From: a virus
IMG/VR virus record: IMGVR_UViG_3300048762_000330
Reading direction: 5' to 3' (one strand)
Length of the DNA stretch: 64,000 nt
Shown here: one piece after another, positions 1,580 to 30,563 of the stretch
Position numbering within the stretch: the stretch's first letter is position 1
Layout: every line of letters begins with the position of its first letter
Translations under genes and position numbers: made by a program
The notes under the pieces: generated by a model
Databases searched by the model: none
What the model saw: the letters and a program-made list of their open reading frames with translations, nothing else
Told to the model about the DNA's origin: nothing

Positions 1580-3331
1580 ATGGCAAAGTCAACCTATGCA
1601 ACTGCATTCGCAACCAAGAAAACTCCACAGACCCAAGCAATTCCGGGTCGTGAAGCGGAAATGAAACAGAATAACGCTGGTGGTGTAACATTCACCATCA
1701 CGCCGGTTCAGATGTTGGAACGTTTCCTGATCCTTGGCAGCAATGCGCCTACGTATTACTCGTCTGCACGCAAACTGACAACAGACAATGCTGACAACAT
1801 CCGTGCGTGTCTGAAGGCCGATGGAAAGCGAACGGTTGACAAAATCGTTGAAATCTCTGTAGCTGGCCGTGCGCCATCGAATGATCCTGCAATTTTCGCT
1901 CTTGCGGTAGCTTCAACACCCGAATTTGGATCTCAAGAAACCGCATTGTATGCTTTATCACAATTAACTAAAGTGTGTCGAATTGGTACCCATTTGTTTC
2001 ATTTTGCTGAATACTTAACCTCAATGAGAGGTTTTGGTCGTGCTGTAAAAAGAGAACTTGGTTTATGGTACACTGACAAGAACGAAGGTCAACTAGCATA
2101 TCAAATTCTTAAATATCAATCAAGAGATGGCTGGAGTCATAAAGATATTTTGTCATTGGCTCATGTAAAAACCTCTGATCCACTTAAATCAGCAGTTTTG
2201 GCTTGGAGTGCAATTGGTGGTCTAGATGCTTTGGCTGAAGCTGAAAAAAATTGGACCAGATCTACAAAAAAGTACAATCTTTCAGAACAAGAAATTAACC
2301 AACGTCGCCATCGTTATGGAAGTGCTTATTCTTTATTGAGTAGTGGTGTTGCGCCAAAGATTATTGTTGGGTACGAGGCAGCTAAAAAAGCAACAACTAC
2401 CAAAGAAATTGTAAAGATTATTCGGGACACTAAACTCAGTCATGAAATGATTCCTACTCAATTTAAAACAGAGCCAGAAGTGTGGATGGCATTGCTAGAA
2501 AATGGGATGCCACTTACCGCAATGGTTCGTAATTTAGGCCAGATGTCGAAAATCGGTCTTTTGAAACCGCTGTCAGATGCATCGAAGTTAGTTGTCTCTC
2601 GCTTGAGTGACCAGCAATTCATTCAGAAGAGCCGTCTACACCCGCTGGCAATCATGCTGGCACAGGGAACCTATCGTCAGGGTCATGGTATGCGTAGTGA
2701 TTCTACATGGGATGTGGTTCCGACTGTTGTTGACGCTTTGGAAGATGCGTTTTACTTGGCGTTCGCAAACGTGATTCCGACTGGCAAAAGTATCTTCATC
2801 GGTCTGGACATTTCAGGTTCGATGAGATGGTCTTACATTGGGGCAACCGGCATTTCAGCGGCGCAAGCCGGTGCTGCAATGGCTTTAGTTATCGCACGTA
2901 CTGAACCAAATTACGCTATCTACGGGTTCAGTACTTCGTTGATTGATTTGGGTATCACAAAGAAGGATACTCTTGAATCAGCAATGAAGAAGACTTCTGA
3001 TCGCAATTTTGGTGGCACCGATTGTGCTCAACCAATGGTCTACGCCGAAAAGAAGGGTTTGACAGTTGATTCTTTTGTTACAATTACAGATTCCGAGACA
3101 TGGGCGGGAAAAATACAGCCGATACAGGCTTTGCAGAGTTACCGCAAGGCACGTGGTAAGAATGATGTGTCTATGATAGTTGTCGGGATGACAAGCACTG
3201 GCTTTAGTATTGCGGACCCTCAAGACCCGTACAATTTGGATGTGGTTGGTTTTGATGCGGCGATACCGTCATTTATATCTGATTTTATTCGTGGCACCAA
3301 TACAGGAATTTCTGAAGATACCGAAGAATAA
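1580..3331 (+). CDS. rsr: Ro60/TROVE-domain RNA-binding protein
   Basis: N-terminal NNAGG-x-x-F, RFLILGS, HEAT-like TROVE region (KYQSRDGWSHKD), C-terminal vWA with MIDAS DISGSM, GGTDCAQPM, TDSETW, VVGFD; GGAG RBS. Confidence 0.95.
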   Translation: MAKSTYATAFATKKTPQTQAIPGREAEMKQNNAGGVTFTITPVQMLERFLILGSNAPTYYSSARKLTTDNADNIRACLKADGKRTVDKIVEISVAGRAPSNDPAIFALAVASTPEFGSQETALYALSQLTKVCRIGTHLFHFAEYLTSMRGFGRAVKRELGLWYTDKNEGQLAYQILKYQSRDGWSHKDILSLAHVKTSDPLKSAVLAWSAIGGLDALAEAEKNWTRSTKKYNLSEQEINQRRHRYGSAYSLLSSGVAPKIIVGYEAAKKATTTKEIVKIIRDTKLSHEMIPTQFKTEPEVWMALLENGMPLTAMVRNLGQMSKIGLLKPLSDASKLVVSRLSDQQFIQKSRLHPLAIMLAQGTYRQGHGMRSDSTWDVVPTVVDALEDAFYLAFANVIPTGKSIFIGLDISGSMRWSYIGATGISAAQAGAAMALVIARTEPNYAIYGFSTSLIDLGITKKDTLESAMKKTSDRNFGGTDCAQPMVYAEKKGLTVDSFVTITDSETWAGKIQPIQALQSYRKARGKNDVSMIVVGMTSTGFSIADPQDPYNLDVVGFDAAIPSFISDFIRGTNTGISEDTEE

Positions 3332-4077
3332 TTTTCTTCACGCCAATCATCAAGGAACTCACAAATATCCAACAATGCGAGTTCTTTGAAACATTCTGTT
3401 CTTCCTCCACTGATACAAGATGGAATGTAACGATAATGTGAAAATTTTTCTATAATATACTGTTCCAAATCGTACAGTTTGTTCAATGCACCATTTAATT
3501 GGAATAAACATGATATAGATAGTTTGTTGTGTCTCCATTTTATTGATCGTTTCGCTATTGATTCTTGTGTTATACCAATTTTAAAAAATGATTCAAAATT
3601 GGAACGAATTAAAATTAAATATAATATTGTGTTTTTATTTTCTCTTGTTTTTCTAACTTCAGGTTGAGAGTAATAACCTCGTGTAACACATTTTGGGCAT
3701 CCGTTTCCGTGCCAATGACCATCTGGTGTTTGTTTGAAGTCACCATGAATTGGACAAGTTATGATGACTTTTGTGGTGCATACAGTATATTTTGATTTGT
3801 CATAATTGTATTTGTTACCATGAATTAATCTACTACGCTGAATGAAAGAATCGGTATTTTTCTTTGTTGGGTGACATAATTTACAGCCCCGACCTCGAAG
3901 ATGTTCACCGGCAATCTGTTGAAAATTTCCATGAATTTTACATGTGATTATTATTGGTAATTTGGCTGTTATATAAAAACTCTTACTGTATTCATATTTG
4001 CTATTATGCACGCTGTTTGCTTTTATAATGAACTCTGTAGTAGTGCGTTTTTTATTTGAATAAATACTTTCAGACAT
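3220..4077 (-). CDS. putative homing endonuclease (repeated H..KY.Y / C..HG.F.Q / GC..C modules + GIY-YIG-like C-terminus)
   Basis: two DUF723-like repeats, then LYLI...FFKIGIT; starts at MSESIY behind a GGAGG RBS; overlaps the Ro60 3' end convergently. Confidence 0.7.
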   Translation of the reverse strand: MSESIYSNKKRTTTEFIIKANSVHNSKYEYSKSFYITAKLPIIITCKIHGNFQQIAGEHLRGRGCKLCHPTKKNTDSFIQRSRLIHGNKYNYDKSKYTVCTTKVIITCPIHGDFKQTPDGHWHGNGCPKCVTRGYYSQPEVRKTRENKNTILYLILIRSNFESFFKIGITQESIAKRSIKWRHNKLSISCLFQLNGALNKLYDLEQYIIEKFSHYRYIPSCISGGRTECFKELALLDICEFLDDWREENYSSVSSEIPVLVPRIKSDINDGIAASKPTTSKLYGS

Positions 4078-4155
4078 GATTTGCTTGCCCTCCAAGCGTT
4101 TGTGTTTAGAGTGAGCGGCGGGTACTGATTATACCTGCCACTCATTCGTATTTAT
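4078..4155 (-). promoter_or_regulatory. late promoter + 5' hairpin leader of the nuclease gene
   Basis: minus strand ATAAATA-N5-GAGTGGCAGGTA(loop)TACCCGCCGCTC-ACTC-TAAACACAA...GGAGG...ATG. Confidence 0.7.
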
Positions 4156-4196
4156 ACTTGACATTCGAAAATTTGATAGTATACTAAATAAAGTTT

Positions 4197-4385
4197 ATGA
4201 TCAAAGCAATTGTTAACGTACTGAAGTTCGATGGGACACTTGTTAGTCATAACGAGTTTGTAACTAATCAGGAAGCTGCTGACTTTATGGTTCCCTTTGT
4301 TATAGAGCATCGACAATTCGATATCAATTATCAGCCGATTGGGGCACTTGACAACCTTGATGAGTGTGCTATACTGAAAGAGTAA
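4197..4385 (+). CDS. hypothetical protein
   Basis: ORF just downstream of TTGACA/TATACT and CTAAATA. Confidence 0.5.
   Translation: MIKAIVNVLKFDGTLVSHNEFVTNQEAADFMVPFVIEHRQFDINYQPIGALDNLDECAILKE
4348..4375 (+). promoter_or_regulatory. sigma70-type promoter of the ncRNA operon
   Basis: TTGACA-16nt-TATACT with TG extended -10. Confidence 0.75.
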
Positions 4386-4438
4386 GAGTGAACGCCAAGC
4401 GATCCGCAAGGGACGTTAAACGACCCAAAGGAACGCAA

Positions 4439-4452
4439 GGATCTTTGACAAT
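4439..4452 (+). promoter_or_regulatory. boxA-like antitermination element
   Basis: GGATCTTTGACAAT resembles rrn-leader boxA and lies about 60 nt after the promoter and ahead of structured RNA. Confidence 0.5.
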
Positions 4453-4462
4453 AAAAATTTCA

Positions 4463-4658
4463 TGGTACGAGCCGCTGGCATTAAGGTTACCTACTTGATG
4501 AAGACCCGGTGAGAAGTTGAAACACCAAATCCGGGAATATTAGCAGTTAGTAACAAGTGCTCCGCAAGGAGTGTAGTAAACAATGCAATGCAAGGGAATG
4601 AAATGCCCAATTTGGAGGCAAGTAATTCCCGGCCTTGAGCTACAATTTGCTCGTACCA
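4463..4658 (+). ncRNA. Y RNA-like RNA 1 (long, with inserted multi-helix domain)
   Basis: 5' TGGTACGAGC pairs with 3' GCTCGTACCA; GAGC-C-G / TTTGCTC bulged helix; GGTTACCT motif; internal CCGGGAAT/ATTCCCGG helix and GCAA tetraloop hairpin. Confidence 0.7.
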
Positions 4659-4662
4659 AATA

Positions 4663-5050
4663 TTCATGTAGAGCTAAAGCTCCATGATCGAGTTCTTCTC
4701 GTCATTAAACCATGAGAAGACGTTCCTGAACTTAACGCATGAAGGAGGCTACTTTGATGCATAGTGGCAAGCGTGACTGTGAAGCAACCGCCGACGATGC
4801 AGAAGGCTATCGCTTCCAATACAGACCTTCTTGTCTACGATAAAGTTCAGCAGTAATTCGCCTGTAAAGCGGGGTCATTTGGTGATGGACGTTAACTAGC
4901 ACTGGTCATTATGGATTAAGACCTTAAATTAATCCTGGTCGCAAGGATCGACAGAAAAATATCCAGTCATTGCCGGTTGCGGCCTTAAATCGGATAGCCT
5001 TGGTGGTGGGCGATATCATCACCCGATTTTTGAATCTCCTTGCGGGAGTT
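4663..5050 (+). ncRNA. unassigned structured RNA domain A
   Basis: no credible ORF; stems TCATG/CATGA, CTTCTC/GAGAAG, CTGAACTT(4726)/AAGTTCAG(4843), GGATTAA/TTAATCC. Confidence 0.5.
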
Positions 5051-5057
5051 GTATTTG

Positions 5058-5119
5058 ACTGAGCCGAAAGTAAGGGTTACCTTCTCATAAAAAGTCTCCT
5101 TACAAAATATTTGCTCAGT
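5058..5119 (+). ncRNA. Y RNA-like RNA 2
   Basis: ACTGAGC/GCTCAGT terminal stem; GAGCCGAAAG...GGGTTACCT...AATATTTGCTC. Confidence 0.7.
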
Positions 5120-5126
5120 ATTTGAG

Positions 5127-5224
5127 TTTTGGATCGAGCCGAAAGGGTAGGGTTATCTCATACCATTTTAATTGAATGCCAGGAAACTGGCTAGCTCCTT
5201 CTCGAATATTTGCTCGTTCCAAAA
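5127..5224 (+). ncRNA. Y RNA-like RNA 3
   Basis: TTTTGGATCGAGC/GCTCGTTCCAAAA stem; GAGCCGAAAGGGTAGGGTTATCTCA; GCCAG-GAAA-CTGGC hairpin; pyrimidine tract; AATATTTGCTC. Confidence 0.75.
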
Positions 5225-5590
5225 ATTTCTGTATTGGCAGAAACGCAGTTTCGCTGTTGTGCGAAAAATAGAACAGCGTGGCGGTGGGTAGAACCGGATG
5301 GCACAATGTGCTCTAAGGCGACTCTCCTGTGACCAGTACACATAAAAGCTGGTGGGAGACCGGGTAGGATAGAACCTATCGGCCTTTTGGGAGAGAAATC
5401 TCCCTAAAGTTTAGTGGTACGTGGCAGCAGATTAATGGAATCGTTGGGATGACGCTGCTTGAGTCATATGTTGAGTAGTGATACTTCAGCATACTTTAGT
5501 GTTGTATATGACGGCGGTATGTAGTATGACATAGGATCTTGAAAATCCTGCTGACGATTCAACCACTTGAGTTTGCCGAAAGGCAAAAAT
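5225..5590 (+). ncRNA. unassigned structured RNA domain B
   Basis: GGGAGA-GAAA-TCTCCC, TTTGCC-GAAA-GGCAAA, GAATCGTT/GACGATTC long-range helix, AGGAT-CTTGAAA-ATCCT anticodon-arm-like hairpin. Confidence 0.5.
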
Positions 5591-5593
5591 GGA

Positions 5594-5775
5594 GCCGATC
5601 ACATTGAACGTCGGGTCTTGCCAGACTGTGATAAACAAGTCGGGGTTGCCGATCACCTAATCCGGGTCTTTCAGAGAGCTAGTGACAACAAGCCATCGGT
5701 TGCCGATCACCTTAATCCGGGTCTTACCAGACTGTGACGACAAGTCGGGGTAGCTGAATCACCTTAATCTCAGGG
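5594..5775 (+). repeat. tandem array of about 54-nt structured repeats (3 full + 1 partial)
   Basis: units start at 5594, 5648, 5702, 5753; shared GCCGATCAC...CGGGTCTT...GTGA..ACAAG...GGT. Confidence 0.85.
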
Positions 5776-5922
5776 AAGCTGAAGAACCTTACTCTTAGCG
5801 TTTTTTTAAGTGTGTACGTTAACATCATTTGAGGTTTATTTGGTCAATCCTTAAAGGCTGGACGTTTCCACTTCACGTCAGAAGTGGTAGGATTCTGTTG
5901 ACCAATAAACAGCAGAGGCTTC

Positions 5923-5957
5923 GGCGGCGGGTGCCAAAACAGCCGCCATTATTATTT
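5923..5957. terminator. hairpin terminator between the ncRNA operon and the convergent gene
   Basis: GGCGGC/GCCGCC stem followed by an AT-rich tract. Confidence 0.5.
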
Positions 5958-7595
5958 TGTGCAAACATTCCAAATCGGATTATAACAAAGATTGCTTGTT
6001 GATGGATCACACGCCGCCCAATCAACTTCTGAGTTAGTCCCATTACCATTCACACATCCACCGGTATAAGGGATAAATCCCGATCCTGTTACTCCCGAAT
6101 CAATTAAGATTCCCACTTGATTGTTGGTTACATTCATTACCCCGATTGCTATATTGGTTAGAGGATCTGGATTCTTTTGAATATGGATTCCGTAACTATT
6201 GCTACTGATGCTTCTAATCAAACCAGTGTTAGGGTCAAGCGCAGAAATATAACTCAAAATTCCCTGATGCATAATGATTCCGGTTCCGCCGCCTCCCGTC
6301 GAACTGGCTATGTGGTTTATAATTGAGTTCCCTTTCAATGCGGTTGAATGCCCATCTATCTCGATAGCATCCACTCCTAAGTCTGGTGTAACCGGGCAGG
6401 AATATCCTGACAGTTGTCCTGATACTCCATTGACGGTTTGAATAATTCCCGTTGCTGGAGTTATTTGTTTATATCCGTTAAGATAGTTACCGTCAATTTC
6501 TACTTTGGAAGCAGAATTCCAAACCGTTAGTTGTCCACCTGGAACTCCATCAGGCTGCTCGTATCGGTTTCCGAGAAATTGATTTCCTGTAATATCGCCC
6601 CATCCACTCATAGTAACACCAGCCGTCCCGTTAAAATTCAAATTACTATTTGCAACGACAACATACCCGTCATTTAAACTACCATTTAAAACCCCATTAG
6701 TTCCACCTTGTATGCCGGTTGTTCTTGCGCTAAACACAGTTGAATTAAGTACAGAGCCGGTGTAGATTCGAACCGCACTTCCGGGAGAATTAATCACTTC
6801 TACATTTTGTAAGAAGGCGTAACTCGCATTACCAAAATCAACATCCCAATTAGCGTAAGCATCGCCGTTGTTAAGAGCACAACCCCAATAAGTTGGTTGG
6901 TCGAAATGAAATGCAAACCTATTTCCATCTATTGTAAGATTTTGTATTCCAACATTTGTGACACCCGCACTGGCGTTCACTACATTGTTTATTTGCTCAT
7001 TGTGACGTTGAATTGTAGTTGCCCATGGAGAATTACTCGAACCTGTCAAAATATAATTTGACTTTGTGAATGTGAGAGGTACATCTGTTGGATATGGAAC
7101 TCCTTGTGCTAAGATGCAATATGTCATTCCATTTGATACATTACCAGGAAGAATTCCAGATAAACAATTTTGTATTGAATTCAAATCGGAATAAACTGTT
7201 CCATAAATTTTACATGCTGCTGGACTTTTCGCATCTGTCATATTGGCATAGTTAGTTACCGTTGTCAATATTTGTGGTCGAAGCGTAGCGAGAAATTGTT
7301 GTGCCACGGTGGTTGTAAGTGTCACACGTTGTGGAACGGTTGCTTTTCGTAGTTGTTGAACAGCAGCGTCTAATGCAGCAACTTCAGTTGAATTAAGTCC
7401 AAATTGCTTCGTATAGCCGTCTTCCATAATGGTGACGAGAGAAGGCACCCAATGTGGATTGGACAAATTTGTGAAAGTGGAATATAGGTAGCTGCATGGT
7501 AACGTATTAGATTGTATTGGTTGTGCCAGACGCTTTGGCGTTTTACCCGGCAGCAGAATCATGAAAATGGTCAGCAATAAAATAAGTTTTCGCAT
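5952..7595 (-). CDS. secreted right-handed beta-helix (pectin-lyase-like) repeat protein
   Basis: signal-peptide-like MRKLILLLTIFMILL; N/G/I-rich beta-helix repeats (IQNLTIDGN, ITGNQF, IDGNYL); start sits 5 nt after CTAAATA. Confidence 0.65.
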   Translation of the reverse strand: MRKLILLLTIFMILLPGKTPKRLAQPIQSNTLPCSYLYSTFTNLSNPHWVPSLVTIMEDGYTKQFGLNSTEVAALDAAVQQLRKATVPQRVTLTTTVAQQFLATLRPQILTTVTNYANMTDAKSPAACKIYGTVYSDLNSIQNCLSGILPGNVSNGMTYCILAQGVPYPTDVPLTFTKSNYILTGSSNSPWATTIQRHNEQINNVVNASAGVTNVGIQNLTIDGNRFAFHFDQPTYWGCALNNGDAYANWDVDFGNASYAFLQNVEVINSPGSAVRIYTGSVLNSTVFSARTTGIQGGTNGVLNGSLNDGYVVVANSNLNFNGTAGVTMSGWGDITGNQFLGNRYEQPDGVPGGQLTVWNSASKVEIDGNYLNGYKQITPATGIIQTVNGVSGQLSGYSCPVTPDLGVDAIEIDGHSTALKGNSIINHIASSTGGGGTGIIMHQGILSYISALDPNTGLIRSISSNSYGIHIQKNPDPLTNIAIGVMNVTNNQVGILIDSGVTGSGFIPYTGGCVNGNGTNSEVDWAACDPSTSNLCYNPIWNVCTK

Positions 7596-7658
7596 GACCA
7601 TATTTAGAAAGCCCTTGACGGCCATTAAAAAATGTGCTATAATAAAAATAGGAGCATT

Positions 7659-7892
7659 ATGACCGGAAAAGATTTGTGGACGATCTTCGATGAAGAGTGC
7701 CGAAAAGACGGTACGATAGCGCTGTTGTTCGGTGTGGAATTTTCCATTGCCAATGGCCGCAGCATCGAACGAAGCGGCCCGCCTGAAGATTTGACGCTGT
7801 GGAATACGATTGCTGCTCGGTTGGAGCGTGGTACAATTGATACCATTGTAGATGTGCTGAAGAAAAAACGAGAAGGATTGCGGCACGCTTGA
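7659..7892 (+). CDS. hypothetical protein
   Basis: GGAG RBS; TTGACG/TATAAT promoter upstream. Confidence 0.6.
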   Translation: MTGKDLWTIFDEECRKDGTIALLFGVEFSIANGRSIERSGPPEDLTLWNTIAARLERGTIDTIVDVLKKKREGLRHA

Positions 7893-7902
7893 AGTGTGCT
7901 TT

Positions 7903-9000
7903 ATGAAAACACTACTCTTCATATGGCTGGCACTGAGTGTACACGCACAGAGTACAACCGAAATTGTACGTCGTGTGAACAATTATTTCAGTATGGATTT
8001 TACGGTGGTAGCAATTCCCGACATCCAAAACCTCGCACAATATTATCCATCGACCTTGAACACGATGATGCAAGCCATCGTGAATAATTCCACAACATGC
8101 GCCGCACCATTCTGTCCTGCGAGCGGACAATGGAACATCGAAGCGGTTTTAGGCGAAGGAGATAATGTCAACGCTACAGATACGGCGCAAATGACTGTTT
8201 CACAGACCGCATGGAATTACATTGCGGCTTCGAATATTCCGTTTTTGATAGCAATCGGAAATCATGACTATGATAATATTTCGGAGCGTAACACAACCAC
8301 CTTTGACAAATTTTTTGGACCGTCATATTATGCTGCTCATTTTTGGTATGGCGGTGGATTCCCTGCCAATTCAAACGCAAATTCATATGCACTTGTCACT
8401 CTTGGCGGCTATCCTTTCGTCCTTCTCAGCATGGAGTTTTATCCACGTTGCACAGCGACGGGAATATTTGCAACTGTGTGCGCCGGATCGACAATAGCTG
8501 TTGACGCTGATGCTGCATCGTGGGCCGAAGGAGTTTTGACCGCAAATAGTGAGCGACAAGCCATTATTGTGACTCATGCATACTTGGATTCTTGGCCCGA
8601 CACCCACAGAATGGACGATTCCGATCCTACTGTCTTTGGGGTTGCTGGTCCCAATTGGCTTAACGGCGTAGAGATGAATAGCACGATTGTGCAGCATAGT
8701 AGTGTTGCGCTTGTAGTGAACGGACATTTTCCAAATGCTTCTTACAGCGCCCATATAGCTCCCCAAGAAACAAACTCGGTGGGAGCGCTGGTATCAGAAG
8801 TTTTCAGCAATTATCAAAATGACATGGCTAATAGTTGGATTGCGTTGTTCAAATTTCGCCCTTCATTGGGCCAAATCGAAGTCTACCATTACTCCGTAAG
8901 CCTTGCAGGATTCGATCCAAATTTTCCGATGTACACGTTGCAATGGAATCCGAAAAGAAACCGGATGGCGGTAGAGAGACCAAAAGACCGGATGAGATAA
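7903..9000 (+). CDS. secreted calcineurin-like metallophosphoesterase
   Basis: signal peptide; PDIQ, GD..N, IGNHDYD, THAYL and NGH motifs. Confidence 0.8.
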   Translation: MKTLLFIWLALSVHAQSTTEIVRRVNNYFSMDFTVVAIPDIQNLAQYYPSTLNTMMQAIVNNSTTCAAPFCPASGQWNIEAVLGEGDNVNATDTAQMTVSQTAWNYIAASNIPFLIAIGNHDYDNISERNTTTFDKFFGPSYYAAHFWYGGGFPANSNANSYALVTLGGYPFVLLSMEFYPRCTATGIFATVCAGSTIAVDADAASWAEGVLTANSERQAIIVTHAYLDSWPDTHRMDDSDPTVFGVAGPNWLNGVEMNSTIVQHSSVALVVNGHFPNASYSAHIAPQETNSVGALVSEVFSNYQNDMANSWIALFKFRPSLGQIEVYHYSVSLAGFDPNFPMYTLQWNPKRNRMAVERPKDRMR

Positions 9001-9007
9001 AAGGCCC

Positions 9008-9036
9008 TTGACAAGCGTTTAAAAGCGTGCTAAACT
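9008..9036 (+). promoter_or_regulatory. sigma70-type promoter of the Y RNA/tRNA cluster
   Basis: TTGACA-17nt-TAAACT. Confidence 0.75.
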
Positions 9037-9050
9037 GGGTTTTGAATGAT

Positions 9051-9115
9051 GATCGAGCCGGAAGATTTGGGTTATCTTATAAAAATCAAACCTATGTCAA
9101 ACAATTTGTTCGGTC
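9051..9115 (+). ncRNA. Y RNA-like RNA 4
   Basis: GATCGAGC/GTTCGGTC stem with G-U covariation; GAGCCGGAAG...GGGTTATCT...ACAATTTGTTC. Confidence 0.7.
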
Positions 9116-9128
9116 TAAATATAGAATT

Positions 9129-9204
9129 GGGCCTGTAGTTTATTACACGAAAACACGTCCCCTGCAAGGATGAGAGTCGGGAGGGAAGCCCGGTGGGTCC
9201 ACCA
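9129..9204 (+). tRNA. tRNA-Ala(UGC), non-canonical
   Basis: 76-nt cloverleaf ending ACCA; G3:U70 pair; loop CCTGCAA; T-loop AGGGAAG; D-loop lacks GG. Confidence 0.75.
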
Positions 9205-9474
9205 GTTTAGAAAGGGTCTTGAGCCAGCAAGCCTTTCCGAATAATCTGGCTATGCAAAGGGTCTGGCTAATTTACGCAGAATGCAAAACAGACCCAGGCT
9301 AAACGCCTTGTAGTACAACGGCGCATCGGTACATCCGGTGCGTCGTTGAAAAGAGTATGATTATGACCTACTTTACAATGATTATGACCTACTTTACATT
9401 GAATTGGCGATTTACCAACGGAACATAACCGCTGTTGATAACCAGCGAGTTGTGTTCTTCACATTGATACACAC

Positions 9475-9550
9475 GGCTGGTAAGCTAATCTAGTGAAAGT
9501 ATCGGTCTGAAAAACCGAGGAGTTGAGAGCGTAACTCAAACCAGCCACCA
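9475..9550 (+). tRNA. tRNA-Phe(GAA), non-canonical T-loop
   Basis: GGCTGGT/ACCAGCC + ACCA; TCGGT-CTGAAAA-ACCGA; T-arm TTGAG-AGCGTAA-CTCAA. Confidence 0.85.
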
Positions 9551-9553
9551 TAT

Positions 9554-9631
9554 AGGGGACGAGTGTTACATAGACAGCATTACAGCCTCCAAAGCTGATA
9601 GGTCGGGCCGCAAGAGTCCGGTCCCCTGCCA
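9554..9631 (+). tRNA. tRNA-Trp(CCA), non-canonical T-loop
   Basis: AGGGGAC/GTCCCCT + GCCA; CAGC-CTCCAAA-GCTG; T-arm CGGGC-CGCAAGA-GTCCG. Confidence 0.8.
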
Positions 9632-9654
9632 TTTTATTAAGTATAAATACTTGC

Positions 9655-10236
9655 ATGGAAAATGCAAATTTCATAATATCCACTCAATACGACGGAAAAC
9701 CTCGTAAACTTTACCGCCATCTGTGTTTGATATGTGATGTGGAATTTTGGGTTCCACGTCATAAAAAAAAGTTATGCTGCTCGCTTACCTGTCGTGGAAA
9801 AGCTAAAACAAAAAATCAAACTGTAATTCTTATTTGTACAAGATGCGGAATTGAATTTCACAAACGACAAAGCAGTTTAGTTAACAGCAAACATCAAAAA
9901 TTTTTTTGTTCAAGAAAATGTAAAGATTTAGCTCAAAGATTAGATGGTGATTGTCCAGAGATCAGACCTTCGCATTACGGAACCGGAACTGGGATTCATG
10001 GATATCGTTTAATAATGGCAAAAGAAATTAAAGATGGATGCATTGATTGTCATGAAACACAATCATATTTTTTGGAAGTTCATCATATAGATGGAAATCG
10101 AAACAATAACGCAAAATCTAATTTGGAGGTTGTTTGCGTGAAAGATCATCGTCGCCGTCATTTACAATTTATAAAGGACACATGGAATTTTAGTTCCCAT
10201 GTGTTAACACCCCGTGAAAATCTGGCTGAAGTTTGA
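9655..10236 (+). CDS. HNH endonuclease with N-terminal zinc-ribbon repeats
   Basis: CxxC...CSxxC repeats; C-terminal CIDC...LEVHHIDGNRNNN...NLEVVC..DH. Confidence 0.85.
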   Translation: MENANFIISTQYDGKPRKLYRHLCLICDVEFWVPRHKKKLCCSLTCRGKAKTKNQTVILICTRCGIEFHKRQSSLVNSKHQKFFCSRKCKDLAQRLDGDCPEIRPSHYGTGTGIHGYRLIMAKEIKDGCIDCHETQSYFLEVHHIDGNRNNNAKSNLEVVCVKDHRRRHLQFIKDTWNFSSHVLTPRENLAEV

Positions 10237-10268: not shown

Positions 10269-10808
10269 ATGAAACTCAGAACTGGATTTGTAAGCAACTC
10301 TTCAAGCAGCAGCTTTATTGTCGCATTCTCCGTCCTTCCAAAGACGAAAGAAGAACTTCAAGCTATGCTTTTCGGAGACGAAAAAGTTTATCCTAATCCG
10401 TACATTTTTAATGCCAATGATACGTATGGCTGGACTGCCGAAGAAGTTACCGCAACTGTATGGGCCGATTTGTTTTCCTCAACCAATTCAAAAAGAACCG
10501 GCGTCATTTCCCGTGAAGAAGCCATTGAAGTGGGAATATCTGGTTACCTAGAAGGTGCAGAACGCCCGGAGATGCCGTCTTTCAATCGCAATCGCTCCGA
10601 TAAAGAACGGGCAAAAGATTGGGACGAATATCAAGAACAATGGAATCGTGCCAACGGGAAAGTCATGGAAGCTTTTCTCGCTAGAGTTCCAGAAGGACAC
10701 ATTCTGACTCATTTTGAGTACTGCGACAATGATGGTGATTACTTTCAAGCCTTGGAGCATGGTCCGTTGTTTCGAAATCTCCAAAGTCTTCGTGTCAGCC
10801 ACCACTAG
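10269..10808 (+). CDS. MKLRxGFVSNSSSSSF-motif protein (paralog 1)
   Basis: N-terminal motif shared with four genes at 59.2-61.6 kb. Confidence 0.75.
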   Translation: MKLRTGFVSNSSSSSFIVAFSVLPKTKEELQAMLFGDEKVYPNPYIFNANDTYGWTAEEVTATVWADLFSSTNSKRTGVISREEAIEVGISGYLEGAERPEMPSFNRNRSDKERAKDWDEYQEQWNRANGKVMEAFLARVPEGHILTHFEYCDNDGDYFQALEHGPLFRNLQSLRVSHH

Positions 10809-10827
10809 AAATGTGTTATACTTAGGT

Positions 10828-11079
10828 ATGAGCCATAGACTTGAAGTAACCTACAAAGGAAGTTTTGATACTGAAAAAGACGCCGCTATCGAAAAAGTCA
10901 TCGGCAAGCAATCCGGTGCCAGTGGTTATGGATTTGGTGAGCGGGATTTGGCCTTCTACTTCGACAAATCAAAAAAGGGAAAGACCACAAAGCAATGCGC
11001 CGATGAAGCTCTCGCCAAATTGAAGAGCGCTAAAATTCATGGTGTGAAAGGTGAAGTGGTCGAAGATAAAAAAGAATGA
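10828..11079 (+). CDS. hypothetical protein
   Basis: AGG RBS; coupled to the next gene. Confidence 0.55.
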   Translation: MSHRLEVTYKGSFDTEKDAAIEKVIGKQSGASGYGFGERDLAFYFDKSKKGKTTKQCADEALAKLKSAKIHGVKGEVVEDKKE

Positions 11080-11794: not shown

Positions 11795-12700
11795 ATGGGT
11801 CAACAAGAAATGTATTGGTCTCTTCTGGCATTATCAGTTGGTGATGCAAGCGGCGAAAATGAATTGAAGATCCTGCCGCAATCAGAGTACAAAGCTGGTA
11901 ATGTTGCGGCCACACGAGATGGGTCAATTCTTTGGCCCTGGACCGACGACACCGCAATGGCTATAGGAGTCTTCAGGACGCTTTCCCGCTACGGAACCAT
12001 CAATCAGGTCGAGCTTACCAAAGAATTCGCACGTAACGCCAAGCTAGACCCACAGCGTGGTTATGGCAAAGGCACCGCCCGGTTGCTTTTCAATTATCTC
12101 TACGATGCAGAGAATTGGAGAGAACTCAGCGAACATGCATGGGGTCTAACTCCAATGTCAGGTTCTAAAGGCAATGGCAGCGCAATGCGTGATGTCATCA
12201 TCGGGCCGTATTTTGATCGAGATTTTCACCGCATCGCAAATGAAGCACGTCGTTCTGCTGAAGTAACGCATTTCCATTTAGAGTCAATTCATGGTTCTAT
12301 CGCTGTGGCCGTCGCCGCCGCTGTTGCGACATTCGAAGCACATCCTGAAAAATGGTTCTGGTCAGAACTCAACATGCATGTACCGGATGGCGAAATAAAA
12401 ACTCGCATTCAAACCGTCGCTAAAATGGGAAATGAAACCAATTGGAAAGTGGTTGGTGCCGTAGGAAACGGAAGTTCGGTCCTGGCAGTCGATACCGTTC
12501 CATTTGCTTTATGGCTGTCTCATCAAGTACTGACAAAAGGGATGAACTTTGAACAAGCCATGAAGAGTATTATTGAAGTTGGCGGCGACACCGATACTGT
12601 AGCCGCAATGGTAGGCGGAATCATTGGCAACAAAGTTCATCCTACACAGGAAATGATTGACCGGACTGAACCACTTCCAGCAGACATTTGTAAGGAATAA
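11795..12700 (+). CDS. ADP-ribosylglycohydrolase family protein
   Basis: SVGDA, WTDDT, GNGSAMR and GGDTDT..AM.G motifs. Confidence 0.9.
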   Translation: MGQQEMYWSLLALSVGDASGENELKILPQSEYKAGNVAATRDGSILWPWTDDTAMAIGVFRTLSRYGTINQVELTKEFARNAKLDPQRGYGKGTARLLFNYLYDAENWRELSEHAWGLTPMSGSKGNGSAMRDVIIGPYFDRDFHRIANEARRSAEVTHFHLESIHGSIAVAVAAAVATFEAHPEKWFWSELNMHVPDGEIKTRIQTVAKMGNETNWKVVGAVGNGSSVLAVDTVPFALWLSHQVLTKGMNFEQAMKSIIEVGGDTDTVAAMVGGIIGNKVHPTQEMIDRTEPLPADICKE

Positions 12701-12920: not shown

Positions 12921-13318
12921 CAACCAAATATTACGCAAAATTTTTGTTCCCCGGACTATTATTTTCCGAATCGGAACGTGTAGAACTGAAAAACCACTCT
13001 TCGCAAGAAGCATTAAAAAAGATGCCAAAAAATGCATTTGCTTTTGAGTTATATGATGTAGAAACACGGAGTTATGTTCTGAGTGAGACAGAAACACATG
13101 ATAAACTAGGAGATGATGCCATTACAAAGGACAAAACTGTCAACCGATCCGGGGTATTCTATCCAGGTGGAGTTTTATTCACTTTAGAAGAAGTCAAATC
13201 TATGGGCAAGAAATATAGCATTCTTGCCAGCAATATGGAAGGGAATTGTTGGGACCCGGTAGTAAAGACTACTGCCGGAAATTTCCAACCATTTGAAAAA
13301 AATGATGTGATTCTTTAA
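12917..13318 (+). CDS. hypothetical protein
   Basis: coupled ORF, AAGGA RBS. Confidence 0.6.
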   Translation: MTTKYYAKFLFPGLLFSESERVELKNHSSQEALKKMPKNAFAFELYDVETRSYVLSETETHDKLGDDAITKDKTVNRSGVFYPGGVLFTLEEVKSMGKKYSILASNMEGNCWDPVVKTTAGNFQPFEKNDVIL

Positions 13319-22314: not shown

Positions 22315-22404
22315 GGACGAATGGGTGAGTCTGGTTAAAACCAATTGCCTGTAAAGCAATCCTCCTTCGGGAGTACAAAGGTTCAAATCCTTTTTCGTCC
22401 ACCA
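22315..22404 (+). tRNA. tRNA-Tyr(GUA) 1
   Basis: GGACGAA/TTCGTCC + ACCA; ATTGC-CTGTAAA-GCAAT; long variable arm with TTCG loop; TTCAAAT. Confidence 0.95.
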
Positions 22405-22414
22405 TCTTTCTTTT

Positions 22415-22503
22415 GGCGCATTAGACCGCTAAGGAGACGGCACCCGCTGTAACCGGGTTGTCCTTTATGGACCCGAGAGGTTCGATACCTTTATGCGCCA
22501 CCA
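22415..22503 (+). tRNA. tRNA-Tyr(GUA) 2
   Basis: GGCGCAT/ATGCGCC + ACCA; ACCCG-CTGTAAC-CGGGT; long variable arm; TTCGATA. Confidence 0.92.
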
Positions 22504-29321: not shown

Positions 29322-30563
29322 ATGCAGACCTTTACACAATTCATAGCGGAGGAAGGTCATGGATCGCATCAAGATGCGTTGCATATCATTCGTACTTTGA
29401 AGTCTCACGGATATGAGCATTCATACATTGCTGGTGGGGCTGTAAGAGATACGCTCCGTGGGCGGCAAGATCAAATCAAAGACTTTGATGTAGCCACCGA
29501 GTGTCCGATGGAAGTGACGCTCAAATTGTTTCCCGGTAGTCAAAAAGTTGGGGCTGCATTTGGTGTATGTCTGTATCGAGGCATTGAGATTGCTCAATTT
29601 CGTCAGGAACAAGGATCTGTCGATTCAAGACACCCTACAAATGTTACCTTTGTACGAGATCCAAAACAAGATCAACAACGGCGTGATTTCACAATCAATT
29701 CTGCCATGATGGATGACAATGGGAAAGTGTTGGATCACTTTGGAGCAAAGCGGGACATTGAAAAAAAGGTTATCAGATTTGTTGGTAATCCAGATGATCG
29801 TTTGTCCGACGATCTTTTGAGAGCATTAAGAGCTTGCCGTTTCGCCACAAAGCTTGGCTTCGAAATTGAACCCGAGAGTTTGGCCGCAATCAAAAAACAT
29901 GCTCCAAATATTCTTAAAATCTCTGCTGAACGTATTACACAAGAAATAACTAAAAGCTTGGAAGCGAATCCGGGTCGGACATTGGAGCTTTTGCAAGCTA
30001 CCAATTTGCTCAAATATATCCTACCCGAAGTGGACAATTTAAGTCCTAAACAGCACAGCACATTAATGAACATCCTAAACCAATCTCATTCCGAGAGCCA
30101 TATGTTCGCTCTGGCTGCTTTGTTCTCTGAACTGGACCAGAACACCGTCCAACGCATTCTGAAGCGCCAAAGGCTATCTAATGACGAACAAAGCCATATT
30201 CTCGCTGTATTGGGATTGCAGCAACGCATTTCCGCCGTCTCTGAACGCACCAGCATGGATGTAATGAAGCGCCTGATGCGGGAGCCGTTCTTTGCAGATG
30301 CCTTGAAATTGTATGGAATGCGAGTTCGAGCCGGTGACGGTGCTGTGAGCCGCCACCCATTCGATTTTTTGACGAAGCTTTTTGGTCGGATGCGGGCGGA
30401 CGATTTGCACCCCGAGAAATTGATATCGGGCGATGATCTCGTAAAACTTGGTATGAAGCCAGGAAAGCAATTCAAAGACATCTTGGATCGAATTGAAAAT
30501 GCCCAACTTCGTGGTGAAATACATTCCAAAGCACAAGCCTTGGCGATGGTTCATTCAATATGA
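29322..30563 (+). CDS. cca: CCA-adding tRNA nucleotidyltransferase / poly(A) polymerase family
   Basis: AGGAVRD..G...KDFDVAT, RRDFTINS, DD.LRALRA.RFA, ISAERI..E; N-terminus MQTFTQFIAEE. Confidence 0.9.
   Translation: MQTFTQFIAEEGHGSHQDALHIIRTLKSHGYEHSYIAGGAVRDTLRGRQDQIKDFDVATECPMEVTLKLFPGSQKVGAAFGVCLYRGIEIAQFRQEQGSVDSRHPTNVTFVRDPKQDQQRRDFTINSAMMDDNGKVLDHFGAKRDIEKKVIRFVGNPDDRLSDDLLRALRACRFATKLGFEIEPESLAAIKKHAPNILKISAERITQEITKSLEANPGRTLELLQATNLLKYILPEVDNLSPKQHSTLMNILNQSHSESHMFALAALFSELDQNTVQRILKRQRLSNDEQSHILAVLGLQQRISAVSERTSMDVMKRLMREPFFADALKLYGMRVRAGDGAVSRHPFDFLTKLFGRMRADDLHPEKLISGDDLVKLGMKPGKQFKDILDRIENAQLRGEIHSKAQALAMVHSI

What the first reader, a model, noticed from the sequence alone, without database searches (positions are those of the whole stretch)
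1580..9115. Phage Ro60 with four Y-RNA-like genes of different sizes
Seen: a full Ro60/TROVE gene, and four elements nearby (4463-4658, 5058-5119, 5127-5224, 9051-9115). In each, the 5' and 3' ends pair with covarying terminal stems. All share GAGCCG...GGTTA(C/T)CT at the 5' side and A(C/T)A(A)TTTG(C/T)TC at the 3' side, giving a C-G pair, a bulged C and a G-U pair. Known: Ro60 binds a bulged helix of this geometry (GUC-C-GA / UUGAC in Y RNAs). From memory, vertebrate Y1/Y4 begin GGUCCGA-x-GGUAGUG(A/G)GUUAUC, close to copy 3. Inference: one phage Ro60 swaps between 62-196-nt Y RNAs to form different RNPs for RNA repair, decay or counter-defence, alongside its tRNAs and CCA enzyme.
Basis: partly seen in the sequence, partly recalled or inferred. 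Interest (0 to 1): 0.9.

Follow-up and report, generated by a model that had tools for sequence, protein, structure and literature searches.

The report
Phage Ro60 with four Y RNAs
A large phage encodes the ring-shaped RNA-binding protein Ro60 and, downstream on the same strand, four small structured RNAs with the docking stem typical of Ro60's partner "Y RNAs"; this pairing is already known from bacteria and other phages, so these are new, unannotated members of a known system.

Summary
Window 1580-3331 encodes a complete Ro60 (TROVE + Ro60-vWA). Four same-strand elements (4463-4658, 5058-5119, 5127-5224, 9051-9115) share GAGC-C-G...GGUUAYCU...UUUG(C/U)UC. The pattern is found 4 times against 0 expected.

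They are real structured RNAs tied to Ro60. A covariance model built only from other phages' sequences finds all four. The family gives 156 hits near Ro60 genes in 80 other phage contigs, every one on the Ro60 strand. The inner stem and bulged C are invariant and the outer stem covaries (90-96% paired against 33-49% in slid controls). The same docking module closes YrlA-type Y RNAs in a distant phage, and the short forms weakly match Rfam's nematode Y-RNA-homologue model.

Phage Ro60 with several Y RNAs is published (Chen 2014; Thermus phage phiLo 2025). This scan has also reported phage Ro60-like genes with partner RNAs on other DNA. I therefore call these new members of a known kind.

Modest new points:
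- This phage clade has no tRNA-like Y RNA.
- It has a conserved ~200-nt Y RNA with a different internal module.
- Unannotated Y-RNA arrays, up to 11 per locus, are common in Ro60 phages.

Binding, expression and function are untested.

The parts
1580..3331 (+). Ro60 / Rsr-type RNA-binding protein gene (583 aa; TROVE ring plus Ro60 vWA domain)
   Evidence: Pfam PF05731 and PF25045. PDB matches to Rsr, human Ro60 and Xenopus Ro60 at E 1e-92 to 1e-108. 67-76% identical orthologues lie in related giant-phage contigs.
4348..4375 (+). Sigma-70-type promoter (TTGACA-16-TATACT with TG) at the head of the non-coding stretch that holds elements 1-3
   Evidence: 11 of 12 consensus matches. The promoter and the following GAAAGAG are conserved in L001 and L106. 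Function is inferred.
4463..4658 (+). Element 1: long Y-like RNA (196 nt). 10-bp lower stem, bulged C, long upper stem, UUACCU, then a ~140-nt multi-helix insert that is not tRNA-like
   Evidence: Fold z = -3.6. Hit by R2, a model built only from other phages (29.5 bits, E 1.7e-4). Orthologues in 6 related phages with covarying stems. No YrlA or tRNA match.
5058..5119 (+). Element 2: minimal Y-like RNA (62 nt) with an exact GCCGAAAG motif. A window-specific tandem duplicate of element 3 with an internal deletion
   Evidence: Its flanks repeat those of element 3 (families D4 and D5). It is absent at the syntenic place in L106 and L107.
5127..5224 (+). Element 3: Y-like RNA (98 nt). 13-position lower stem with one U.U, GCCGAAAG, GGGUUAUCUC, and a loop with a GCCAG-GAAA-CUGGC hairpin
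   Evidence: Not in the training set of R1 yet found at E 2e-8. R2 scores it 44.6 bits. Fold z = -3.1. Orthologues in L106, L107 and L001.
9008..9036 (+). Sigma-70-type promoter (TTGACA-17-TAAACT) 15 nt upstream of element 4
   Evidence: 10 of 12 matches. The region is conserved with L106. Function is inferred.
9051..9115 (+). Element 4: minimal Y-like RNA (65 nt) with GCCGGAAG and GGGUUAUCUU, followed by tRNA-like genes
   Evidence: R2 scores it 52.3 bits. Full-length alignment to Rfam RF01656 (nematode sbRNA) at 22.1 bits. Orthologue in L106 at 13035-13111.

Best explanation
The four elements are phage-encoded Y RNAs, the non-coding partners of the phage's own Ro60.

Each folds so that its 5' and 3' ends form a lower stem. 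The four innermost pairs (GAGC / G[C/U]UC), the unpaired C, the following G.U and the A-rich 5' strand (CGAA-like) make the Ro60 docking site. An upper stem ends in GGG, and an invariant UUAYC opens the apical loop. The part beyond that varies: almost nothing in elements 2 and 4, one hairpin in element 3, and a ~140-nt multi-helix module in element 1.

Elements 1-3 are probably cut out of one long non-coding transcript that starts at the promoter at 4348-4375. Element 4 is probably made from its own promoter together with the tRNA-like genes that follow it.

By analogy with characterised Ro60 RNPs, the RNAs would sit on the outer face of the Ro60 ring, control access to its cavity and stabilise the protein. 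Through their variable modules they would tether Ro60 to other factors, such as a host exoribonuclease, during infection.

What is shown: the RNAs are real, conserved and structured, and they co-occur with Ro60 genes. What is inferred: binding, processing and the downstream role.
For: 1. The motif is non-random: 4 matches against 0 expected.
2. Independent model: R2 was built only from 64 sequences of other phages. It finds all four elements, and nothing else in the window reaches E 0.1. R1 run without filters finds no extra copy.
3. Link to Ro60: R1 gives 64 of 64 hits, and R2 156 of 156 hits, on the Ro60 strand in 80 IMG/VR Ro60 loci, mostly within 2 kb of the gene. In a complete 405-kb relative, 3 of 4 hits lie within 3 kb of Ro60. 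A strict pattern scan of IMG/VR returned four stretches. Three lie next to a Ro60 gene, one of them in L001's own contig, so two are new contigs. All 13 hits in bacterial genomes lacked Ro60 and a closing stem, about the chance number by my rough estimate.
4. Structure: 90.1% of cells pair against 33-47% when the partner is slid, and all 13 pairs show double changes in 60 distinct sequences. Within the clade, 96.1% pair against 40-49%. There the core pairs never vary or change on one side only, and the five outer pairs covary, as expected for a protein-recognition core.
5. The bulged C, the next G and UUA are invariant in 60 of 60 independent sequences.
6. The same module closes two RNAs in L005 that Rfam scores as YrlA (E 2.5e-6 and 5.7e-6, full-length model). 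Cultured mycobacteriophage and Streptomyces-phage loci have R2 hits that overlap their YrlA matches.
7. Literature:
- GNCGAAN0-1G is the proposed Rsr-binding motif, and Y RNAs lie within 4 kb of Ro60 on the same strand (PMC4201824).
- Mutating the CGAA motif raises Kd 3-4-fold for a phage Ro60 (PMC12135203).
- A UUAUC loop motif is shared by sbRNAs and vertebrate Y RNAs (PMC4726728).
Against: - There is no expression or binding evidence.
- No element reaches any Rfam threshold. There was no hit at all to Y_RNA RF00019 or YrlA RF02553, even at E <= 10.
- Elements 1 and 4 depart from the published GNCGAAN0-1G motif (GCCGCUGG and GCCGGAAG).
- Element 4 lies 5.7 kb from Ro60, beyond the 4-kb rule of Chen et al., with genes on both strands in between.
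- Elements 1-3 sit inside a longer conserved non-coding stretch, so they could be domains or processing signals of a larger RNA.
- The CM-derived alignments are fitted to the model's structure, which inflates pairing counts somewhat.
Confidence: 0.8

Rival explanations
1. The elements are processing or termination hairpins ('punctuation') of the phage's non-coding RNA and tRNA operons. Host RNases or RNA polymerase would recognise them, with no Ro60 binding.
For: In relatives they are interleaved with tRNA genes in one gene-free stretch. Elements 1-3 lie inside a ~1.6-kb non-coding stretch behind one promoter. In L003 several copies are followed by U-runs.
Against: Phage tRNA clusters in general are not reported to carry such hairpins, and every hit here lies on the Ro60 strand near a Ro60 gene. 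The invariant CG and UUAYC positions, set beside a freely covarying outer stem, point to sequence-specific protein recognition. The motif matches the published Ro60 and Rsr contact sequence.
Confidence: 0.08
2. They are small RNAs that work independently of Ro60, for example as decoys or sponges for a host nuclease or a defence sensor. On this view they sit next to the Ro60 gene only because both belong to the same RNA-metabolism module.
For: Function is untested. The loops are diverse. Two jumbo rhizobiophages with Ro60 showed no such RNA within 5 kb, so the linkage is not absolute. One hit in G003 lies about 39 kb from the Ro60-adjacent hits in that record.
Against: This needs a second explanation for why the conserved part equals the known Ro60 docking site, and why YrlA-type RNAs share it.
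Confidence: 0.07
3. They are DNA-level repeats, such as protein-binding sites, recombination sites or homing-endonuclease targets, rather than RNAs.
For: Homing endonuclease genes lie nearby at 3220-4095 (-) and 9655-10236 (+). Element 2 arose by local duplication.
Against: Compensatory changes keep the pairing while the sequence changes, and G.U pairs are allowed on one strand only. The strand bias of 156 out of 156 also fits a transcribed RNA and not a DNA site.
Confidence: 0.02

Closest known systems
Short bacterial and phage Y RNAs without a tRNA-like domain: S. Typhimurium YrlB, and Thermus phage phiLo Yrl1 and Yrl2 (PMC4201824; PMC12135203)
   Same: They are encoded next to Ro60/Rsr. They have a closing 5'/3' stem and a CGAA-type motif on the 5' strand. 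There are several per genome. phiLo Yrl2 is a ~60-nt hairpin that phage Ro60 binds with nM affinity, and the binding depends on CGAA.
   Different: No sequence comparison with YrlB or phiLo Yrl was possible here. phiLo Ro60 is too divergent to appear in my searches. In this window the RNAs lie downstream of Ro60, not upstream, and there are four of them.
YrlA (Rfam RF02553), the tRNA-mimicking Y RNA of bacteria and mycobacteriophages
   Same: The terminal module is the same, GAGCCG(G/A)A...(G/A)UUAUCUC...AUUUG(C/U)UCG, as seen in L005's two YrlA-type RNAs. Genomic position and strand relative to Ro60 are also the same.
   Different: None of the four elements has T- or D-arm-like hairpins, and none gives a YrlA or tRNA match. 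Element 1 carries a different ~140-nt module. The whole clade (window, L001, L106, L107, L109, L111) lacks a YrlA match. Five other phage arrays each contain at least one.
Eukaryotic Y RNAs and nematode stem-bulge RNAs (Rfam RF00019, RF01656)
   Same: The architecture is the same: a lower stem with a single bulged C followed by G, an upper stem, and UUAUC opening the loop. The RF01656 consensus UCGGUCCGGAG...UGGGUUAUC...CUUGACCG aligns end to end with element 4. The family consensus from 60 other phage sequences is G(G/A)GC-C-Gaa...GGGUUAUC...aYUUG(U/C)(C/U)C.
   Different: Scores stay below the gathering threshold (22-35 bits against 38), and Y_RNA RF00019 gives no hit. The third stem pair is G-C here and U-A in animals. 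These are bacterial-type promoters, not Pol III genes. Whether this is homology or convergence on the same Ro60 surface is not resolved.
D. radiodurans Yrn1 in the Rsr-Y RNA-PNPase (RYPER) complex
   Same: This is the working model for function. The Y RNA stem docks on Ro60 and the distal module tethers an exoribonuclease and gates the ring.
   Different: There is no evidence here for PNPase or any other effector. The distal modules are unrelated.

Membership tests
Y RNA (functional class: Ro60/Rsr-bound ncRNA) | Encoded close to the Ro60 gene on the same strand (Chen 2014: within 4 kb) | tested here: met
   All four are on the + strand. Elements 1-3 start 1.1-1.8 kb after the Ro60 stop codon and element 4 starts 5.7 kb after it. 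Family-wide, 156 of 156 hits are on the Ro60 strand.
Y RNA (functional class: Ro60/Rsr-bound ncRNA) | The 5' and 3' ends pair into a long stem that is supported by covariation | tested here: met
   90-96% of cells pair against 33-49% in slid controls, and the outer pairs show many double changes.
Y RNA (functional class: Ro60/Rsr-bound ncRNA) | Conserved Ro60-contact motif on the 5' strand (animals GGUCCGA with a bulged C; bacteria GNCGAAN0-1G) | tested here: inconclusive
   Elements 2 and 3 match GNCGAAN0-1G exactly (GCCGAAAG). Element 4 has one mismatch (GCCGGAAG) and element 1 has more (GCCGCUGG). The bulged C and following G are invariant in all copies and in 60 of 60 relatives.
Y RNA (functional class: Ro60/Rsr-bound ncRNA) | Physically bound by Ro60, with RNA stability depending on Ro60 | not testable with these tools
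   No protein-RNA prediction tool was available and no experimental data exist.
Y RNA (functional class: Ro60/Rsr-bound ncRNA) | Accumulates as a discrete small transcript | not testable with these tools
Only promoter-like sites were found.
YrlA (Rfam RF02553) | Internal tRNA-like domain (T-arm, D-arm, acceptor-like stem) and a model score | tested here: not met
   There was no hit at E <= 10 in 3300-10000, 4440-5240 or 9030-9135. Positive controls scored 28-46 bits: L005, L104, L105, L045 and others.
Nematode sbRNA (Rfam RF01656 ceN72-3_ceN74-2) | Covariance-model score at or above the gathering score (38 bits) | tested here: not met
   Element 4 scores 22.1 bits (E 0.0085 in a 106-nt search). 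Elements 1-3 give no hit. Relatives score 34.6 and 30.4 bits. The resemblance is real but membership is not shown.
Vertebrate Y RNA (Rfam RF00019) | Covariance-model match | tested here: not met
   There was no hit at E <= 10.
Ro60 / Rsr protein | TROVE HEAT-repeat ring plus C-terminal vWA domain, full length | tested here: met

The most novel reading that the evidence does not exclude
Ro60-encoding phages as a group carry unannotated arrays of modular Y RNAs: one invariant Ro60 handle joined to interchangeable distal modules, up to 11 per locus. In this giant-phage clade the usual tRNA-mimic module is replaced by a different, conserved ~140-nt module (element 1). That module would tether Ro60 to a so far unknown partner, perhaps for counter-defence or for control of host RNA decay. 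In addition, the short forms could be true homologues of animal Y and sbRNAs, sharing the lower stem, bulged C, upper stem and UUAUC. That would make UUAUC an ancient Ro60-linked motif rather than a eukaryote-specific replication motif.
Probability: 0.25. Interest if true: 0.6.

Novelty: new member of a known kind. Interest (0 to 1): 0.4.

Why it matters
Ro60-Y RNA particles are studied as RNA quality-control machines and as lupus and Sjogren autoantigens. What they do in phages is only starting to be explored: phiLo Ro60 engages host PNPase, and a Ro60-like protein of phage Bas63 counters the ppl defence.

This locus adds a clean natural series on one shared docking stem, from two minimal hairpins to a 196-nt RNA with a novel module. 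That is convenient material for asking what the variable part of a Y RNA recruits.

The family model made here also shows that most Ro60 phages carry several such RNAs that neither Rfam nor the deposited annotations record. In cultured actinophages these RNAs can be tested directly.

Nothing here changes the known concept.

Tried and rejected
- Rfam at gathering and at E <= 10 thresholds gave no Y_RNA or YrlA hit for the window's elements.
- Megablast of 20 kb against cultured phages found nothing.
- A strict DNA pattern scan of 185,579 bacterial and archaeal genomes gave 13 hits. None had a Ro60 gene or a closing stem, so I treated them as chance. L004 from IMG/VR was likewise chance.
- The metagenome scan with the Ro60 alignment returned only the same phage as L001 plus a 2-kb fragment.
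- blastn of element 1's insert and of the neighbouring non-coding blocks against the first ~100 loci found no match for the insert. The blocks matched only L001.
- RNAalifold on seven element-1 orthologues gave an unstable picture of the internal module. MAFFT mis-registers the covarying hairpin, so I do not propose a full structure for it.
- The jumbo rhizobiophages Phosso and Atu_ph07 have Ro60 but no detectable Y-like RNA within 5 kb.
- The review PMC10870794 is not held.
It has no Ro-type handle, so I dropped it.
- Complex prediction was not used because it does not take RNA.

Full report
**What is in the sequence**

Window 1580-3331 (+) encodes a 583-aa protein with a TROVE domain and a Ro60-type vWA domain. 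It matches the solved structures of D. radiodurans Rsr (E 1.7e-108), human Ro60 and Xenopus Ro60.

The window is phage DNA. It holds a tail protein, several homing endonucleases, an integrase, an ADP-ribosylglycohydrolase and a tRNA nucleotidyltransferase at 29322-30563. It also holds tRNA genes. The nearest relatives are 320-405-kb viral contigs. No cultured phage matches at the DNA level.

**The four elements**

The motif GAGCCG-N(5-30)-GGTTAYCT occurs four times, all on the Ro60 strand, against none in 100 shuffles. Together with the 3' motif UUUG(C/U)UC, each copy closes into a lower stem. The four innermost pairs are conserved (GAGC / G[C/U]UC). The flanking pairs differ from copy to copy but stay complementary. 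A single unpaired C and a G.U pair follow. An upper stem ends in GG(G), and UUAYCU opens the loop.

| Element | Coordinates | Size |
|---|---|---|
| 1 | 4463-4658 | 196 nt |
| 2 | 5058-5119 | 62 nt |
| 3 | 5127-5224 | 98 nt |
| 4 | 9051-9115 | 65 nt |

A covariance search without filters finds no further copy in the 64 kb.

**Are they real RNAs linked to Ro60?**

- *Nearest relative.* The closest IMG/VR relative, L001, has a Ro60 that is 67% identical and comes from a genome rated complete. It carries four such elements in the gene-free stretch downstream of Ro60, interleaved with tRNA genes. Their outer stems have changed on both sides.
- *Distant phages.* A strict pattern scan of IMG/VR returned two further contigs in which the motif lies next to Ro60 genes that are only ~40% identical. 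L003 has seven tandem copies directly upstream of Ro60. L005 has three.
- *First model.* R1, built from eight short copies, recovered copies it was not trained on. It then gave 64 hits in 80 further phage Ro60 loci, all on the Ro60 strand. On those 60 distinct sequences, 90.1% of stem cells pair against 33-47% when the partner is slid, and all 13 pairs show double compensatory changes.
- *Second model.* R2, built only from those foreign hits, finds all four window elements, including the long element 1. It gives 156 hits at E <= 1e-3 in the 80 loci, again all on the Ro60 strand. Among the best 150 hits, 54 loci have at least one, 38 have at least two, and the maximum is 11.
- *Whole genome.* In the complete 405-kb genome, three of four hits lie within 3 kb of Ro60.
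- *Own clade.* In 32 elements from nine phages, 96.1% of cells pair against 40-49% in controls. The core pairs are invariant and the five outer pairs covary. That is the signature of a sequence-specific protein site set in a structural stem.

**What they are**

In L005 the same terminal module closes two RNAs that Rfam aligns full-length to YrlA, the tRNA-mimicking bacterial Y RNA (E 2.5e-6 and 5.7e-6, below the gathering score). In cultured Mycobacterium phage Dandelion and Streptomyces phage Comrade, R2 hits overlap or flank YrlA matches upstream of Ro60. None of these is annotated in the deposited records.

The 5' strand of elements 2 and 3 (GCCGAAAG) fits the motif GNCGAAN0-1G exactly. Chen et al. 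proposed that motif as the Rsr contact and compared it with GGUCCGA of animal Y RNAs. Each base of CGAA contributes to binding by a phage Ro60.

The consensus of 60 independent phage sequences is G(G/A)GC-C-G-a-a...GGGUUAUC...a-Y-UUG(U/C)(C/U)C. The bulged C, the next G and UUA are invariant.

This is also the layout of animal Y RNAs and nematode sbRNAs, whose loop begins with a conserved UUAUC. Rfam's sbRNA model RF01656 aligns end to end with element 4 (22.1 bits) and with relatives' copies (34.6 and 30.4 bits; gathering score 38). The vertebrate Y_RNA model and the YrlA model do not hit the window's elements.

I therefore file the elements as Y RNAs in the functional sense. They are not members of any existing Rfam family.

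**Anatomy and history of the locus**

A homing-endonuclease gene on the opposite strand (3220-4095) and a small ORF separate Ro60 from a strong promoter-like site at 4348-4375. That site is conserved in L001 and L106. Then comes a stretch with no long or recognisable ORF, running to about 5950. It holds element 1, a 350-nt block that is 79% identical to L106, elements 2 and 3, and further conserved blocks.

Elements 1, 3 and 4 have positional orthologues in L106 and L107. Element 2 does not. Its flanks repeat those of element 3 at about 80% identity. Element 2 is therefore a recent tandem duplicate of element 3 that lost the internal hairpin.

Element 4 has its own promoter-like site at 9008-9036 and is followed by unusual tRNA-like genes.

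The element-1 type, about 200 nt, is conserved in seven phages of the clade. One internal hairpin covaries (CCCGG:CCGGG, GCCUG:CAGGC, UCCAC:GUGGA, CACC:GGUG by eye). I could not settle the whole fold.

Neither the window nor five clade relatives contain a YrlA-type, tRNA-like Y RNA. All five other large arrays I tested contain at least one. [quoted passage not shown]

**How it most likely works**

Shown: these are conserved structured RNAs with an invariant core, and they occur next to Ro60 genes on the same strand.

Inferred from characterised systems:
- The stem docks on the outer surface of the Ro60 ring.
- The RNA gates the ring and stabilises the protein.
- The variable module recruits other factors, as Yrn1 recruits PNPase and as phiLo Yrl RNAs form ternary complexes with host PNPase.

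A counter-defence role is conceivable, since a Ro60-like protein of phage Bas63 counters the ppl system. Nothing here tests it.

**Novelty and verdict**

Phage Ro60 genes are common, with 358 cultured phage records. Phage Y RNAs have been published since 2014, and two have been characterised biochemically in phiLo. Earlier reports of this scan describe phage Ro60-like genes with sets of partner RNAs on other DNA.

The finding is real and well supported, but it is a new member of a known kind. The modestly new points are:
- the size and spread of the unannotated short Y-RNA family in phages;
- the clade-specific long RNA with a module that is not tRNA-like;
- the closeness of the short forms to the animal and nematode consensus.

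Interest is 0.4.

Noticed in passing
window 9475-9547; L001 14700-14772: A tRNA-Phe(GAA)-like gene with an odd T-loop (AGCGUAA instead of UUCRANY). Rfam tRNA scores it 42.8 bits and ARAGORN misses it. It is conserved in L001 (39.7 bits), with anticodon and T stems changed on both sides by eye.
   Followed up: partly
window 4677-5025 and 5407-5692; L106 11128-11505 and 12031-12326: Non-coding blocks between and after the Y-like RNAs are 76-79% identical to a relative whose Ro60 is 76% identical. No Rfam match at E <= 10. They are probably further unknown structured RNAs of the same operon.
   Followed up: partly
window 5594-5775; L001 13970-14050: Tandem ~54-nt units (GGTTGCCGATCACCT..., CGGGTCTTGCCAGACTGTGA) at the end of the non-coding stretch, partly conserved in L001 and L106.
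   Followed up: no
L003 7920-8690 (- strand): Seven tandem Y-like RNAs directly upstream of a Ro60 gene. One carries T-arm-like and D-arm-like hairpins, and several are followed by U-runs.
   Followed up: partly
L045 2670-4980; L054 1200-4930: The largest arrays seen: 11 and 10 model hits next to one Ro60 gene. They mix short forms with YrlA-type forms and true tRNAs.
   Followed up: partly
L111 10727-10904: A Y-type handle appears to enclose a full tRNA-model match (10804-10875, 38.7 bits), so a tRNA may sit in normal topology inside a Y stem. It could also be two neighbouring elements merged by the model.
   Followed up: no
L109 14773-14814: An abiF RNA (Rfam RF03085, 45.2 bits against a gathering score of 37) lies in a related giant-phage contig, next to its tRNA cluster.
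   Followed up: no
L104 3580-3933; L103 3734-3959; L105 2034-3284: Cultured phages Dandelion, BearBQ and Comrade have 2-3 unannotated Y-like RNAs upstream of their 'Ro-like RNA binding protein' genes. These offer ready experimental systems.
   Followed up: partly
window 22315-22503: Two adjacent tRNA-Tyr(GTA) genes with long variable arms.
   Followed up: no
clade loci L106-L112 and window 11795-12700: Conserved synteny around Ro60: Macro-domain protein, ClpP-like protease, Ro60, the ncRNA/tRNA stretch, an eIF-1A-like small protein, then ADP-ribosylglycohydrolase. This suggests one RNA and ADP-ribose metabolism or counter-defence island.
   Followed up: no
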